This document shows, in pieces, positions 10,383 to 51,674 of a DNA stretch of 64,000 nt; position 1 is the stretch's first letter, and each line of letters begins with the position of its first letter. The translations under genes were made by a program, and so were the position numbers. The notes beneath the pieces were generated by a model. It saw only the letters and a list, made by a program, of their open reading frames with translations. It was not told where the DNA came from and did no database searches. Location of the stretch: NCBI RefSeq assembly GCF_003790525.1, contig NZ_CP033635.1; one strand, 5' to 3'. This stretch comes from Escherichia coli (GTDB lineage Bacteria > Pseudomonadota > Gammaproteobacteria > Enterobacterales > Enterobacteriaceae).

Positions 10383-10859
10383 CTATCTGCACTGCTCATT
10401 AATATACTTCTGGGTTCCTTCCAGTTGCTTCTGCATCGTCATCAACCGTTCTCTGAGGGTGAAATAATCCCGTTCAGCGGTGTCTGCCAGTCGGGGGCTG
10501 GTTGCATTATCCACGCCGGAGGCGGTGGTGGCTTCACGCACTGACTGACAGACTGCTTTGATGTGCAACCGACGACGACCTGCGGCAACATCATCACGCA
10601 GAACATCATTTTCAGCTTTCGCATCAGCTAACTCCTTCGTGTATTTTGCATCGAGCGCAGCAACATCACGCTGACGCTGCTGCATGTCAGCGATGGTGGC
10701 GATCGCCTGCTTCAGCTCACTGACTTTTTTATCGCGCTGCTCTTTGTAAGTGATGGCGTTATCGCGGTAATGATTGACCGCCCACGACAGGCAGACGATG
10801 ATGCAGATAACCAGAGCATAAATAATCGCGGCGACTCTGCTCACTGATCTATTCCCCAA
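10383..10859 (-). CDS. Rz: Spanin inner-membrane subunit Rz
   Basis: 158 aa; [36 protein letters not shown]...[64 protein letters not shown], near-identical to lambda Rz. Confidence 0.9.
10442..10624 (-). CDS. Rz1: Spanin outer-membrane lipoprotein Rz1 (embedded in Rz, +1 frame)
   Basis: 60 aa [60 protein letters not shown]; lipobox VVGC and proline-rich core as in lambda Rz1. Confidence 0.85.
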
Positions 10860-11374
10860 CAGGCTAATGCGCTTTCCTGGTCACGACGAATAACCTGTCC
10901 GTAGCAGTTATTTGAACGTGTGCGGCAATCACGCCCACCGTCCTTAATCCACCAGCGAATCGACTCACAGGCACCTTTACGATCACCGGCATTAAGCCGC
11001 TTATAAAACGTCGACGGGAAACACTTACCGGGGCCAATGTTATAGGGACAGAATGACGCTATACCCGCTTTCTGTGGTTCGGTCAGTGGTACTTTAATAT
11101 TGCGCTCCACCCATGCCAGCGCCTTATCACGCTCAATGGCATTAACCTGAGCGCATTTTTCCTTCGACAGCTTCATTCCCGGTATGACGGGCTTACCATC
11201 CACCATTGTGGCACCACGACAGATGGTCCATATACCGGAACCATCGCGGTATGCCGTTGTGTGGTTACCTTCTTTTTCATCCAGAAACTGGTCGAGAATA
11301 TCAGGCGCAGGCGCACCGACGGCAATCAGTGCCAGAACGGCAGCCGACAGGCCGTATCTGATTTTTGCGTTCAT
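10841..11374 (-). CDS. R: Endolysin R (phage lysozyme, T4-lysozyme-like glycosidase)
   Basis: 177 aa; [22 protein letters not shown]...[15 protein letters not shown]...[16 protein letters not shown]; resembles the R lysozymes of lambdoid/Stx-type phages; overlaps Rz start. Confidence 0.85.
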
Positions 11375-12031: not shown

Positions 12032-12304
12032 TCATATTTCTTTTGGTGCCTTTTTCGCAATCTCAGCCACAGCATGTGCCGTAGCCGGAACATTACCGGC
12101 ATTAGTTCGTTCCAGAATTTCGAGCAATATGCGGGTTCGTTTTTCCTGCTCCCGTTTGTTAAGGCGATAAGTAAGAACGCCAAGAATGATACTGAACGCC
12201 ACGCCGATAATAAATCCCCAATCCTGCAGTGACAGGCTGGCAAAGAACGCAACAAGTCCTGCGCTGCCGTATGCAGCGTTACTGTATCGTTCGTCCATTC
12301 TCAT
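12032..12304 (-). CDS. Putative holin (two predicted TM helices)
   Basis: 90 aa; hydrophobic stretches GSAGLVAFFASLSL and GFIIGVAFSIILGVLTY followed by charged tail KREQEKRTR; sits upstream of the endolysin in the late operon. Not lambda-S-like; assignment by position and topology. Confidence 0.4.
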   Translation of the reverse strand: MRMDERYSNAAYGSAGLVAFFASLSLQDWGFIIGVAFSIILGVLTYRLNKREQEKRTRILLEILERTNAGNVPATAHAVAEIAKKAPKEI

Positions 12305-12643
12305 AGTCCCTCACCTCCGCCATCCGACATTACGGACGGCAGCAAGTCAGAATCTCGTTATAAAAAAGCCGCACGAAGAGGCTGTTTGTTCAGGTATTTT
12401 ATCCAGTGCGCCGTAAAACCCCGACCTTCAGGGTGTGGAGGATGTCAACATCAATAACTGACATTCTGCCCAAAGCTCCCGAAGATTCCCTTTGCACAAT
12501 TTCACTGACCGGATCTCAGCACAAGCCACAGGGAATGGTCAGTGTGACGCTCTCTGTGGCCCCTCCTGAAAAGCCCTGTGGTTTAATCGCGACGGACCTG
12601 GCGCGGATATGAAGCAGGCCGTGAGCACGAGCCTGGAAATTTA

Positions 12644-12719
12644 GTGCCGACTACCGGAATTGAAGTGGTGGCCTGATGGTTACAACTAAACTGTTCTGCC
12701 GACTGAGGTAAGTCGGCGC
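12644..12719 (-). ncRNA. tRNA-like element / possible degenerate third phage tRNA
   Basis: Abuts the two tRNAs; perfect 7-bp terminal complementarity (GCCGACT ... AGTCGGC) and a D-loop-like AGTCGG, but I could not fold a convincing cloverleaf or anticodon arm and there is no encoded CCA. Confidence 0.25.
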
Positions 12720-12796
12720 TGGACCGCCACCGGGGACTCGAACCCCGCACAGTCAGCTTAGAAGGCTGATGCTCTCTCCTGATGAGCTAGTAGCGG
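12720..12796 (-). tRNA. argN: tRNA-Arg (anticodon UCU)
   Basis: Minus-strand read CCGCTAC..CTCATCAGGAGAG..CAGCCTTCTAAGCTG..GGGGTTCGAGTCCCCGGTGGCGGTCCA: 7-bp acceptor (one G-U), anticodon loop with UCU, T-loop TTCGAGT, encoded CCA. Confidence 0.8.
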
Positions 12797-12797
12797 T

Positions 12798-12873
12798 TGG
12801 TGGCCCTTGCTGAATTTGAACCAGCGCCCTTGCGATTATGAGTCGCTCGCTCTCACCACTGAGCTAAAGGGCC
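12798..12873 (-). tRNA. ileZ: tRNA with CAU anticodon (Ile2-lysidine type or Met)
   Basis: Minus-strand read GGCCCTTTAGCTCAGTGGTGAGAGCGAGCGACTCATAATCGCAAGGGCGCTGGTTCAAATTCAGCAAGGGCCACCA: canonical cloverleaf, anticodon CAT, encoded CCA; resembles the ileX/ileY-type tRNA carried by lambdoid phages. Confidence 0.8.
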
Positions 12874-13327: not shown

Positions 13328-14523
<1,196 letters not shown>

Positions 14524-14671: not shown

Positions 14672-15778
14672 ATGAAAAATTTAACAGTGGCACTTTCTGC
14701 TGTAGCAGCATCAGTATTTCTGGCAACGTCTTCAAATGCAGCAGAAATATACAATAAAGATGCAAACAAAGTGGATTTATACGGTAAAGCAGTTGGTTTA
14801 CATTATTTTTCTTCTGATAAGGACCAAAACGGAGATCAGACTTACGCACGCCTTGGATTCAGAGGTGAAACCCAAATAAATAATTATATTACTGGTTTTG
14901 GTCAGTGGGAATATAATTTCCAGGGGAACAACCCTGAAGGGGATGGAGCTCAAACTGGAAACAAGACTCGCCTGGCATACGCTGGTCTGAAGCTTGCAGA
15001 TGCTGGCTCTCTTGACTATGGTCGTAACTACGGCGTGGTGTACGACGCATTAAGCTACACTGACGTCTTCCCGGAGTTTGGACCTACCACAGCGCAAAAG
15101 GATAACTTCTTCGTTGGTCGTGTAGGCGGTGTTGCCACATACCGCAACACTGACTTTTTTGGACTGGTCGATGGGCTTAGCTTTGCAATTCAGTATCTGG
15201 GAAAAAATGAACGCAAGGATAAACCAGATACTTCAAACGGAGAGGGTGTAGGTGGCTCTGTCAGCTATGAATATGAAGGATTTGGTTTTGTCGCAGCATA
15301 CGGCGCTGCTGATCGTACTAAAAATCAGAAAAAGGCTGAGCTTGGTAAAGGGAAAAAAGCTGAACAGTGGGCCACCGGGGTAAAATATGACGCAAATAAT
15401 CTGTACCTGGCTGCCAGTTATGGTGAAACAAATAATACCCGTGCAATATCGTATGGTGATAATATTTCAGGAGTGGCGAATAAAACCGAAGATTTCACTG
15501 TTGTGGCACAATACCAGTTCGACTTTGGATTACGCCCGTCTCTTGCTTATACCCACTCTAAAGCAAAAAACCTTTCATCCAGTACTGATATTAGTAAAAA
15601 ACATGATGACGGATATATTGAAAAATTCGTTGAAGTAGGGGCTTCTTATTACTTCAACAAAAATATGTCTACATACATAGATTACAAAATCAATATGCTC
15701 GATAAAAATAAATTCACTGAAAGAACAGGAGTATCAACCGACGATATTGTCGCTGTTGGTCTGGTTTATCAGTTCTGA
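14672..15778 (+). CDS. Outer-membrane general porin, prophage-encoded (NmpC/Lc/OmpC family)
   Basis: 368 aa; signal peptide then AEIYNKD.NK.DLYGK...; [10 protein letters not shown]; [12 protein letters not shown]; [15 protein letters not shown]; C-terminal [12 protein letters not shown]; typical 16-strand porin signature, closest by memory to the DLP12 nmpC product. Confidence 0.9.
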
Positions 15779-15956: not shown

Positions 15957-16379
15957 TTATATCCCTGCCCTGGAGGACACAGTTTTACGACGTATCGAAT
16001 AATTTGTGCTCACATATCGATCCATCTCAAGGCGAACATCCAGCATCATCAACATACCATCAACCACTCCTTCAGCTTTTTGCAAACGCTTTCCAATATG
16101 CGTATCCGAACATCCATGTTTCCTTGCTAACTTCATGAACGTCATCCCATATACGTAGTAATCAACCAGCATGTCATGCATATCGGCGTTGTTCTTTTTC
16201 AGGCGAGCCATACAACCACATATAATCATCGCGTCATCATCGGAACACTGCGATCGCGATTTTACTTTTGACGGTATCAGCCCCTTAAATCCGGCGGCAA
16301 TGCCTGACCATTCCACGTCTTCATGATTATTTGCGACCCATGCCCCCCAACGTTCAAGAACCATCTGAATATCACGCAT
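15957..16379 (-). CDS. Late-gene antiterminator Q (DLP12 QuuD/YbcQ type)
   Basis: 140 aa [64 protein letters not shown]..., resembles the DLP12 prophage Q-like antiterminator as recalled; located upstream of the lysis cassette. Confidence 0.7.
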
Positions 16380-35657: not shown

Positions 35658-35692
35658 ATAAAAAAAGGCCCCTGTTGAAATTGCAGGGGCCT
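35658..35692 (-). terminator. Rho-independent terminator downstream of cutC
   Basis: AGGCCCCTG..CAGGGGCCT hairpin with an A-run on the plus strand (T-run on minus). Confidence 0.5.
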
Positions 35693-35738
35693 GGTACGAG
35701 CAAGCATCATATTGGGCGACATGATGCAACGGTAAAAA

Positions 35739-36494
<756 letters not shown>

Positions 36495-51561: not shown

Positions 51562-51588
51562 TTATCGGCAAGGAAGGGGGAAACTTTA
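51562..51588 (-). promoter_or_regulatory. Sigma-28 (FliA) class 3 promoter of the tar-tap-cheRBYZ operon
   Basis: Minus strand reads TAAAGTTT-cccccttcctt-GCCGATAA, an exact match to the sigma-28 consensus TAAAGTTT-N11-GCCGATAA, about 30 bp upstream of the tar start. Confidence 0.7.
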
Positions 51589-51613
51589 TTGCTGATGCCA
51601 CCCGCCGCGAAAT

Positions 51614-51648
51614 TGAAATAAAAAACCCGATGCGCAGATCATCGGGTT
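51614..51648 (-). terminator. Rho-independent terminator after cheW (end of motAB-cheAW operon)
   Basis: Minus strand AACCCGATGATCTGCGCATCGGGTTTTTTATTT. Confidence 0.65.
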
Positions 51649-51674
51649 CATTTCAATTGAGGAAATCGGGAGAA

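What the first reader, a model, noticed from the sequence alone, without database searches (positions are those of the whole stretch)
12644..12719. Degenerate third tRNA-like element adjacent to the two phage tRNAs
It has perfect 7-bp terminal complementarity and a D-loop-like AGTCGG, but I cannot fold a proper anticodon or T arm and it has no CCA. It may be a decayed argO-type tRNA, a tRNA-like structure with another role (processing signal, integration target), or nothing.
Basis: seen in the sequence. Interest (0 to 1): 0.3.

Follow-up and report, generated by a model that had tools for sequence, protein, structure and literature searches.

The report
Decayed phage tRNA-Thr pseudogene
The element is the mutated remnant of a threonine tRNA gene (a copy of the E. 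coli host gene thrU) in the third slot of a prophage tRNA cluster; it is an ordinary pseudogene, not an argO-type arginine tRNA.

Summary
On the minus strand, 12717..12642 is a 76-nt tRNA-shaped sequence with a perfect 7-bp acceptor stem, AGTCGG in the D-loop, and CTA where CCA should be. It is not argO-like. It aligns without gaps to E. coli thrU, tRNA-Thr(UGU), at 61/76 positions, against 52-62% for other tRNAs including 933W argO. The anticodon TGT is in register. It occupies the Thr slot of a common lambdoid-phage array, Ile2(CAT)-Arg(TCT)/Lys(TTT)-Thr(TGT)-Gly(TCC), lying between antiterminator Q and the holin. In intact arrays the Thr and Gly genes are 100% identical to K-12 thrU and glyT. 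Here 15 differences break 6 of the 13 thrU pairs in the D, anticodon and T arms, including G53-C61, and the Gly gene is absent. ARAGORN does not call it, Rfam tRNA scores 19.8 bits (cut-off 29; intact copies 55-74), and PGAP leaves it unannotated in sister prophages. Partly decayed intermediates exist elsewhere. All other copies found (19 of 5426 E. coli genomes, one IMG/VR contig, two metagenome contigs) are identical, so selection cannot be tested. Most likely it is a non-functional relic co-transcribed with the late operon. A residual RNA-processing role is not excluded. Interest is low.

The parts
12642..12717 (-). Pseudo-tRNA-Thr(UGU), thrU-derived. Position 1 = 12717, anticodon TGT = 12684..12682, C53 = 12665, discriminator A = 12645, CTA in place of CCA = 12644..12642.
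   Evidence: 61/76 gap-free identity to K-12 thrU and to the phage PhiR47_1 tRNA-Thr. Rfam RF00005 19.8 bits against a cut-off of 29. 14/21 cloverleaf pairs. No ARAGORN call at default settings. Unannotated by PGAP in L003-L005.
12698..12717 (-). Local 7-bp hairpin inside the relic: positions 1-7 GCCGACU pair with 14-20 AGUCGGC, loop UACCUC. It competes with the acceptor stem.
   Evidence: Present in the MFE and centroid folds of the 76-nt RNA. It is perfect only in the relic: A17C and T20C give 7/7 pairs, against 6/7 in thrU, one of them a G-U wobble.
12720..12796 (-). Intact tRNA-Arg(UCU) on the argN-type scaffold; second slot of the array.
   Evidence: ARAGORN. Rfam 54.5 bits. 66/77 identity to 933W argN.
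12798..12873 (-). Intact ileZ-type tRNA with anticodon CAT (tRNA-Ile2; ARAGORN labels it Met); first slot of the array.
   Evidence: ARAGORN. Rfam 67.8 bits. 73/76 identity to 933W ileZ. PGAP names it tRNA-Ile in sister loci.
12032..12304 (-). Holin gene; first lysis gene downstream of the array.
   Evidence: The ORF has weak, sub-cut-off Pfam holin matches. The protein annotated at the homologous position in L005, WP_029400649.1, is named 'phage holin family protein' there.
15957..16379 (-). Antiterminator Q gene, upstream of the array. It places the array in the late (pR'-type) transcription unit.
   Evidence: Pfam Phage_antitermQ, E 1.3e-53.

Best explanation
The element is a pseudogene of a phage-borne tRNA-Thr(UGU). 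Lambdoid phages of E. coli commonly carry, between the Q antiterminator gene and the lysis cassette, a tRNA array Ile2(CAU)-Arg(UCU) or Lys(UUU)-Thr(UGU)-Gly(UCC). In that array the Thr and Gly genes are copies of the host genes thrU and glyT. In this prophage lineage the Thr copy has accumulated about 14 point substitutions. Homology to the intact array ends at about tRNA position 74, so the CCA end and the Gly gene are gone. Six of the 13 thrU pairs in the D, anticodon and T arms are broken, including the conserved G53-C61 pair, and a new local hairpin (positions 1-7 with 14-20) competes with the acceptor stem. It is inferred, not shown, that the sequence is still transcribed as part of the late or tRNA transcript, cannot mature into a chargeable tRNA, and persists as neutral spacer between tRNA-Arg and the holin gene. 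Loss is tolerable because the host supplies an identical thrU.
For: 1. Homology. Identity to K-12 thrU is 61/76 with no gaps, and the PhiR47_1 tRNA-Thr is 76/76 identical to thrU. Identity to every other tRNA tested, including argO, is 52-62%.
2. Anticodon. TGT is in register in the Rfam alignment.
3. Synteny. The upstream Ile2 and Arg/Lys genes align continuously with arrays that have an intact Thr(TGT)-Gly(TCC). Among the IMG/VR loci recovered with a thrU-like pattern, 17 arrays are Met(cat)-Arg(tct)-Thr(tgt)-Gly(tcc) and 26 have Lys(ttt) in the second slot.
4. Structural decay. The relic keeps 14/21 cloverleaf pairs against 20/21 in thrU. Six of the 7 altered pairs are broken and only one (27-43) is compensated.
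5. Graded Rfam tRNA scores: 73.8 (thrU-type), 66.9 (L130), 59.5 (L098), 54.8 (L114), 19.8 (relic). L098 and L114 share derived states with the relic: G42T/T43C in both, T20C in L098, G24A in L114.
6. Faster divergence. The relic differs from intact copies at 20% of positions, against 8-9% for the adjacent Ile+Arg genes in the same arrays.
7. No detection. ARAGORN at default settings and PGAP do not call it.
Against: None of the 15 differences falls in positions 1-9 or 58-74, that is, the whole acceptor stem and the 3' T-stem strand. The a-priori probability of an untouched acceptor stem is 0.033. This hints at residual constraint, or at a recombination history. No close intermediates carrying the most damaging changes (C10, C53) were found. 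All recovered copies are identical, so neutrality is inferred rather than demonstrated. Expression and lack of aminoacylation were not tested.
Confidence: 0.85

Rival explanations
1. The relic is kept as an RNA-processing handle. Its intact acceptor stem and part of its T arm would still be recognised by RNase P. Cleavage at its 5' end, 2 nt after the CCA of tRNA-Arg(UCU), would release the 3' end of the functional upstream tRNA from the long late transcript.
For: The spacer between the tRNA-Arg CCA and the relic is only 2 nt. No substitutions fall in the acceptor stem or in positions 58-74 (P = 0.033 a priori for the acceptor stem). T54-T55-C56 and A58 are retained. In E. coli, RNase P alone separates some polycistronic tRNA transcripts (PMC2190699; PMC7049720, listed).
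Against: The predicted fold sequesters the 5' acceptor strand in a local hairpin with positions 14-20. G53-C61 is broken and the CCA, which helps RNase P binding, is lost. There is no sequence variation among copies to show constraint. The statistical signal is weak.
Confidence: 0.08
2. It is a functional but unusual tRNA-Thr(UGU) with a non-canonical structure.
For: The acceptor stem, U8, A14, G18-G19, U33, anticodon UGU, T-loop TTC and A58 are all present (sequence). There is a weak full-length Rfam alignment.
Against: The Rfam score is 19.8 bits against a 29-bit cut-off and 55-74 bits for relatives. The D stem has 2/4 pairs, the anticodon stem 2/5 and the T stem 3/5. C53 destroys the conserved 53-61 pair and there is no encoded CCA. 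ARAGORN finds it only at a threshold of 80% or lower, in the wrong register (Asn gtt), and alongside a spurious antisense call.
Confidence: 0.03
3. It is a decayed argO-type tRNA-Arg, as in 933W-like Stx phages.
For: It lies in the third slot after ileZ-like and argN-like genes, the slot argO occupies in 933W.
Against: Identity to argO is 62% with gaps, which is background level, against 80% gap-free identity to thrU. The anticodon is TGT, not TCT. The acceptor stem is thrU's, not argO's.
Confidence: 0.01
4. It is a structural element of another kind, such as a transcription attenuator, an RNA-stabilising hairpin or a recombination/integration target, that only resembles a tRNA.
For: A perfect 7-bp GC-rich hairpin at 12717..12698 was created by two derived changes. 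The plus-strand fold is also stable (z = -3.7).
Against: The hairpin is not followed by a T-run, and the terminator scan does not flag it. One of the two changes (T20C) also occurs in functional relatives, so only A17C is specific to the relic. The element is internal to the prophage, not at an end. In L005 the IS421 insertion lies in tRNA-Arg, not in the relic.
Confidence: 0.03

Closest known systems
E. coli thrU, tRNA-Thr(UGU), and its 100%-identical copies in lambdoid phages (e.g. Escherichia phage PhiR47_1, vB_EcoM-606R7)
   Same: Same length and gap-free alignment. Identical acceptor stem, anticodon TGT and 3' T-stem strand. Same slot after the Ile2 and Arg/Lys genes, between Q and the holin.
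   Different: There are 15 differences in 76 nt. The D, anticodon and T stems are disrupted, G53 is changed to C, and CCA is replaced by CTA. The downstream tRNA-Gly(UCC) is absent. The element falls below all tRNA detection thresholds.
ileZ-argN-argO tRNA cluster of Stx phage 933W
   Same: Same genomic position (after Q, before the late genes). The first two genes are homologous: 73/76 identity to ileZ and 66/77 to argN.
   Different: The third gene is not homologous to argO. The second gene has anticodon TCT here, against TCG in 933W argN. No stx genes follow the array; a holin gene does.
Partly decayed phage thrU variants in IMG/VR contigs (L098/L104/L128, L114)
   Same: They share derived states with the relic: G42T/T43C in all, T20C in L098-type, G24A in L114. 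They sit in the same array architecture.
   Different: They keep 17-18 of 21 pairs, score 55-60 bits, are still called by ARAGORN, and retain CCA and the Gly gene.

Membership tests
Functional tRNA gene (Rfam RF00005) | Covariance-model score at or above the gathering cut-off (29 bits) | tested here: not met
   19.8 bits, E 0.11 in a 341-nt search. No hit at the gathering threshold.
Functional tRNA gene (Rfam RF00005) | Cloverleaf with four intact stems | tested here: not met
   Acceptor 7/7, D 2/4, anticodon 2/5, T 3/5; 14/21 pairs against 20/21 in thrU.
Functional tRNA gene (Rfam RF00005) | Conserved G53-C61 pair and T-loop | tested here: not met
   C53 opposite C61. The T-loop TTCAATT is otherwise retained.
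Functional tRNA gene (Rfam RF00005) | Genomically encoded 3' CCA (a feature of E. coli tRNA genes; established knowledge) | tested here: not met
   CTA at 12644..12642.
Functional tRNA gene (Rfam RF00005) | Detected by a dedicated tRNA finder | tested here: not met
   ARAGORN at default settings makes no call. It is called only at a threshold of 80% or lower, in the wrong register and together with a spurious antisense call. tRNAscan-SE was not available, but PGAP leaves it unannotated in identical loci.
thrU-lineage tRNA-Thr(UGU), by descent (pseudogene) | Sequence identity to thrU clearly above that to other tRNAs | tested here: met
   61/76 gap-free against 52-62% for 12 other tRNAs.
thrU-lineage tRNA-Thr(UGU), by descent (pseudogene) | Anticodon TGT at positions 34-36 of the alignment | tested here: met
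   window 12684..12682.
thrU-lineage tRNA-Thr(UGU), by descent (pseudogene) | Orthologous slot in the Ile2-Arg/Lys-Thr-Gly array between Q and the holin | tested here: met
   context.
argO-type tRNA-Arg of 933W-like phages | Sequence homology to argO | tested here: not met
   48/78 with gaps, which is background level. The acceptor stem and anticodon differ.
RNase P substrate / tRNA-like processing element | Cleavage by RNase P at the 5' end of the acceptor stem | not testable with these tools
   Only the 7-bp acceptor stem and 3 of 5 T-stem pairs can be seen. The predicted fold prefers a competing hairpin.

The most novel reading that the evidence does not exclude
The dead tRNA-Thr has been retained, with its acceptor stem and 3' T-arm strand untouched, because RNase P or another tRNA-processing enzyme still cuts at it. 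That cut would define the 3' end of the adjacent functional tRNA-Arg(UCU), only 2 nt upstream, and separate the tRNA array from the lysis mRNA. On this reading it is a pseudogene exapted as a processing signal.
Probability: 0.07. Interest if true: 0.4.

Novelty: new member of a known kind. Interest (0 to 1): 0.1.

Why it matters
It matters little. The result corrects an annotation guess (thrU-type, not argO-type). It adds one example of tRNA gene decay inside the tRNA arrays that lambdoid prophages carry upstream of their lysis or toxin genes. It also illustrates that these arrays are built partly from captured host genes (thrU, glyT) and turn over quickly. If the relic proved to be a retained RNase P processing site, it would be a small but neat case of exaptation of a tRNA pseudogene.

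Tried and rejected
1. argO homology was rejected.
2. A remnant of the glyT 3' half downstream of the relic (12540-12641) was suggested by one MAFFT alignment. Local alignment scores are no better than shuffles (P = 0.60 and 0.16), so it is rejected as unsupported.
3. A search of IMG/VR for intermediates carrying C10 or C53 found only the relic itself, in L129.
4. A scan anchored on the relic/flank junction found two metagenome contigs, both identical to known copies, and nothing in the GTDB species representatives. There is therefore no variation with which to test selection.
5. ARAGORN with relaxed thresholds finds the interval only at 80% or lower, mis-registers the anticodon (Asn gtt) and makes a false antisense call, so it is uninformative on its own.
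6. The terminator/promoter scan shows nothing at the element.
7. Overlapping ORFs (55 aa at 12583-12750 minus strand, 68 aa at 12406-12612 plus strand) were judged spurious on position alone. The first overlaps the 3' part of the tRNA-Arg gene. Their products were not searched against any library.
8. Literature searches for ileZ/argN/argO and for lambdoid tRNA-Thr found nothing specific.

Full report
**Observation.** The window holds two tRNA genes on the minus strand: tRNA-Arg(tct) at 12720-12796 and a CAT-anticodon tRNA at 12798-12873 (ARAGORN; Rfam 54.5 and 67.8 bits). Directly after them on the same strand, 12717..12642 reads GCCGACTTACCTCAGTCGGCAGAACAGTTTAGTTGTAACCATCAGGCCACCACTTCAATTCCGGTAGTCGGCACTA.
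- a perfect 7-bp acceptor-type complementarity, GCCGACT with AGTCGGC;
- AGTCGG at D-loop positions 14-19;
- no CCA (CTA stands in its place);
- poor anticodon and T arms.

Bases 12718-12719 are the spacer after the CCA of tRNA-Arg.

**Detection.**
- ARAGORN at default settings does not call the element.
- Rfam at gathering thresholds does not call it either.
- A permissive Rfam scan aligns the full tRNA model to exactly 12645-12717(-) at 19.8 bits, with E 0.11 and a cut-off of 29. UGU sits in the anticodon position, and mismatches are flagged in the D, anticodon and T stems.
- ARAGORN finds the interval only when its threshold is lowered to 80% or less. It then uses a wrong register (Asn gtt) and also makes a spurious antisense call.

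**Identity.** The closest phage records (PhiR47_1, vB_EcoM-606R7) align through the whole array. They annotate tRNA-Met(CAT), tRNA-Lys, tRNA-Thr(TGT) and tRNA-Gly(TCC) there, between antiterminator Q and holin S.
- The element aligns without gaps to that tRNA-Thr at 61/76 positions.
- That phage gene is 76/76 identical to E. coli K-12 thrU, and the phage tRNA-Gly is 75/75 identical to K-12 glyT.
- Identity of the element to twelve other tRNAs, including 933W argN and argO, is 52-62% with gaps.

The element is therefore a derivative of a thrU-type tRNA-Thr(UGU), not of argO. The first two genes are homologous to 933W ileZ (73/76) and argN (66/77).

**Decay.** Relative to thrU there are 15 differences (9 transitions, 6 transversions): G10C, A17C, T20C, G24A, A27G, C28T, G30T, C32G, T39C, G42T, T43C, T47C, G53C, G57A and C75T.
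- Cloverleaf pairs fall from 20/21 to 14/21: acceptor 7/7, D 2/4, anticodon 2/5, T 3/5.
- Of the seven pairs that changed, six are broken and one (27-43, A-T to G-C) is compensated.
- G53C removes the conserved G53-C61 pair.
- Homology to the intact array stops at about position 74, so C75T may be the junction of the event that removed the CCA end and the Gly gene.
- An apparent remnant of the glyT 3' half downstream is not statistically supported.
- Rfam scores form a graded series: 73.8 bits for thrU-type phage copies, 66.9 for L130, 59.5 for L098, 54.8 for L114 and 19.8 for the relic. L130's anticodon stem is fully re-paired by changes on both strands, GATGA/TCATC.
- L098 and L114 share the derived states G42T/T43C with the relic. 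L098 also shares T20C, and L114 also shares G24A.
- The relic differs from intact copies at 20% of positions. The neighbouring Ile+Arg genes differ by only 8-9% from the same arrays, as expected if constraint on the Thr copy was lost.

**Context.** On the minus strand the order is:
- Q antiterminator, 15957-16379 (Pfam E 1.3e-53);
- an oppositely oriented porin gene, 14672-15778;
- an IS5-type transposase, 13396-14376;
- tRNA-Ile2, tRNA-Arg and the relic;
- a holin gene, 12032-12304;
- a lysozyme gene, 10841-11374.

This is the late-operon position where lambdoid phages carry tRNA genes (933W annotation). Among the IMG/VR loci recovered with a thrU-like pattern, the array Met(cat)-Arg(tct)-Thr(tgt)-Gly(tcc) occurs 17 times, the Lys(ttt) version 26 times, and Thr-Gly alone 47 times.

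**Distribution.** The relic and its downstream flank occur in 19 of 5426 complete E. coli genomes, mostly poultry isolates. They also occur in one IMG/VR contig and two metagenome contigs. They are absent from the GTDB species representatives. All copies are 100% identical from the relic to the holin gene, whereas the upstream Ile and Arg/Lys genes vary by recombination. PGAP annotates nothing over the relic. With no variation, selection on the relic cannot be tested.

**Mechanism.** The most likely reading (about 0.85) is a non-functional pseudogene. It would be transcribed passively with the array or late operon, and its loss would be tolerated because the host thrU supplies the same tRNA.

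Two oddities are noted.
- None of the 15 differences lies in positions 1-9 or 58-74. The a-priori probability of an untouched acceptor stem is 0.033; for the whole 26-nt set, chosen post hoc, it is 0.0008.
- A17C and T20C make positions 14-20 a perfect complement of positions 1-7. This local hairpin dominates the predicted fold. T20C also occurs in functional relatives, so this is not significant.

The first oddity allows a minority reading (about 0.08). The acceptor/T minihelix might still serve as an RNase P site that frees the 3' end of tRNA-Arg, 2 nt upstream, by analogy with RNase P-dependent separation of polycistronic tRNAs in E. coli (PMC2190699; PMC7049720). The competing hairpin, the broken 53-61 pair and the lost CCA argue against it.

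**Verdict.** It is an ordinary new member of a known kind, a tRNA pseudogene in a prophage tRNA array, and is of low interest.

Noticed in passing
window 12720-12796 (-); L001, L004, L007, and IMG/VR loci: The second-slot tRNA (argN-type scaffold) carries different anticodons in otherwise homologous arrays. It is TCT (Arg) here, TTT (Lys) in PhiR47_1 and in L004, and TCG in 933W argN. L004 shares the identical relic and holin module with the window. ARAGORN also reports aaa, tga, taa and uninterpretable loops in other IMG/VR arrays. This suggests anticodon switching and/or decay in this slot.
   Followed up: partly
L001 3179-3332; L006 (K-12 4175388-4175747): The phage tRNA-Thr(TGT) and tRNA-Gly(TCC) are 100% identical to host thrU and glyT of the tufB-upstream operon. 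In the phage they are only 3 nt apart, whereas the host has tyrU plus spacers between them. This points to capture of host genes followed by deletion of tyrU, or to ongoing gene conversion with the host copies.
   Followed up: partly
window 12798-12873 (-): The window's ileZ-type tRNA has 3 substitutions relative to the widespread allele found in 933W and PhiR47_1. One changes position 61 from C to T, turning the G53-C61 pair into G53-U61. Its Rfam score is 67.8 bits against 72.5 for the common allele. L004 shares this allele.
   Followed up: no
window 13396-14376 (+): A transposase ORF (Pfam DDE_Tnp_1 plus DUF772), which I recognise as IS5-type, lies between the prophage porin gene and the tRNA array. 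The sister locus L004 has the porin (there a pseudogene) and the array, with no transposase annotated between them. The insertion separates Q from the tRNA and lysis genes and may affect late transcription.
   Followed up: no
L005 (NZ_CP135671.1) 1108-2500: In strain TUM9803 an IS421 element is inserted inside the tRNA-Arg gene of the same array. It leaves a truncated tRNA-Arg upstream and the relic-holin module downstream. This is another sign that the array is being eroded in prophages.
   Followed up: no
window 14672-15778 (+): A full-length Gram-negative porin gene (Pfam Porin_1, E 9e-126) is encoded antisense between Q and the tRNA array. It looks like a prophage-borne moron. It is a pseudogene with an internal stop in sister locus L004.
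   Followed up: no
window 35660-35967 (-) and 51578-51655 (+): There are strong Rfam hits to the MicL sRNA (365.7 bits) and the C0465 RNA (111.6 bits). These mark the right-hand part of the window as E. coli-type chromosomal backbone outside the prophage.
   Followed up: no
L114 10452-10601 (-): A sok antitoxin RNA (hok/sok type I toxin-antitoxin system) scores 107 bits in one of the related IMG/VR prophage contigs.
   Followed up: no
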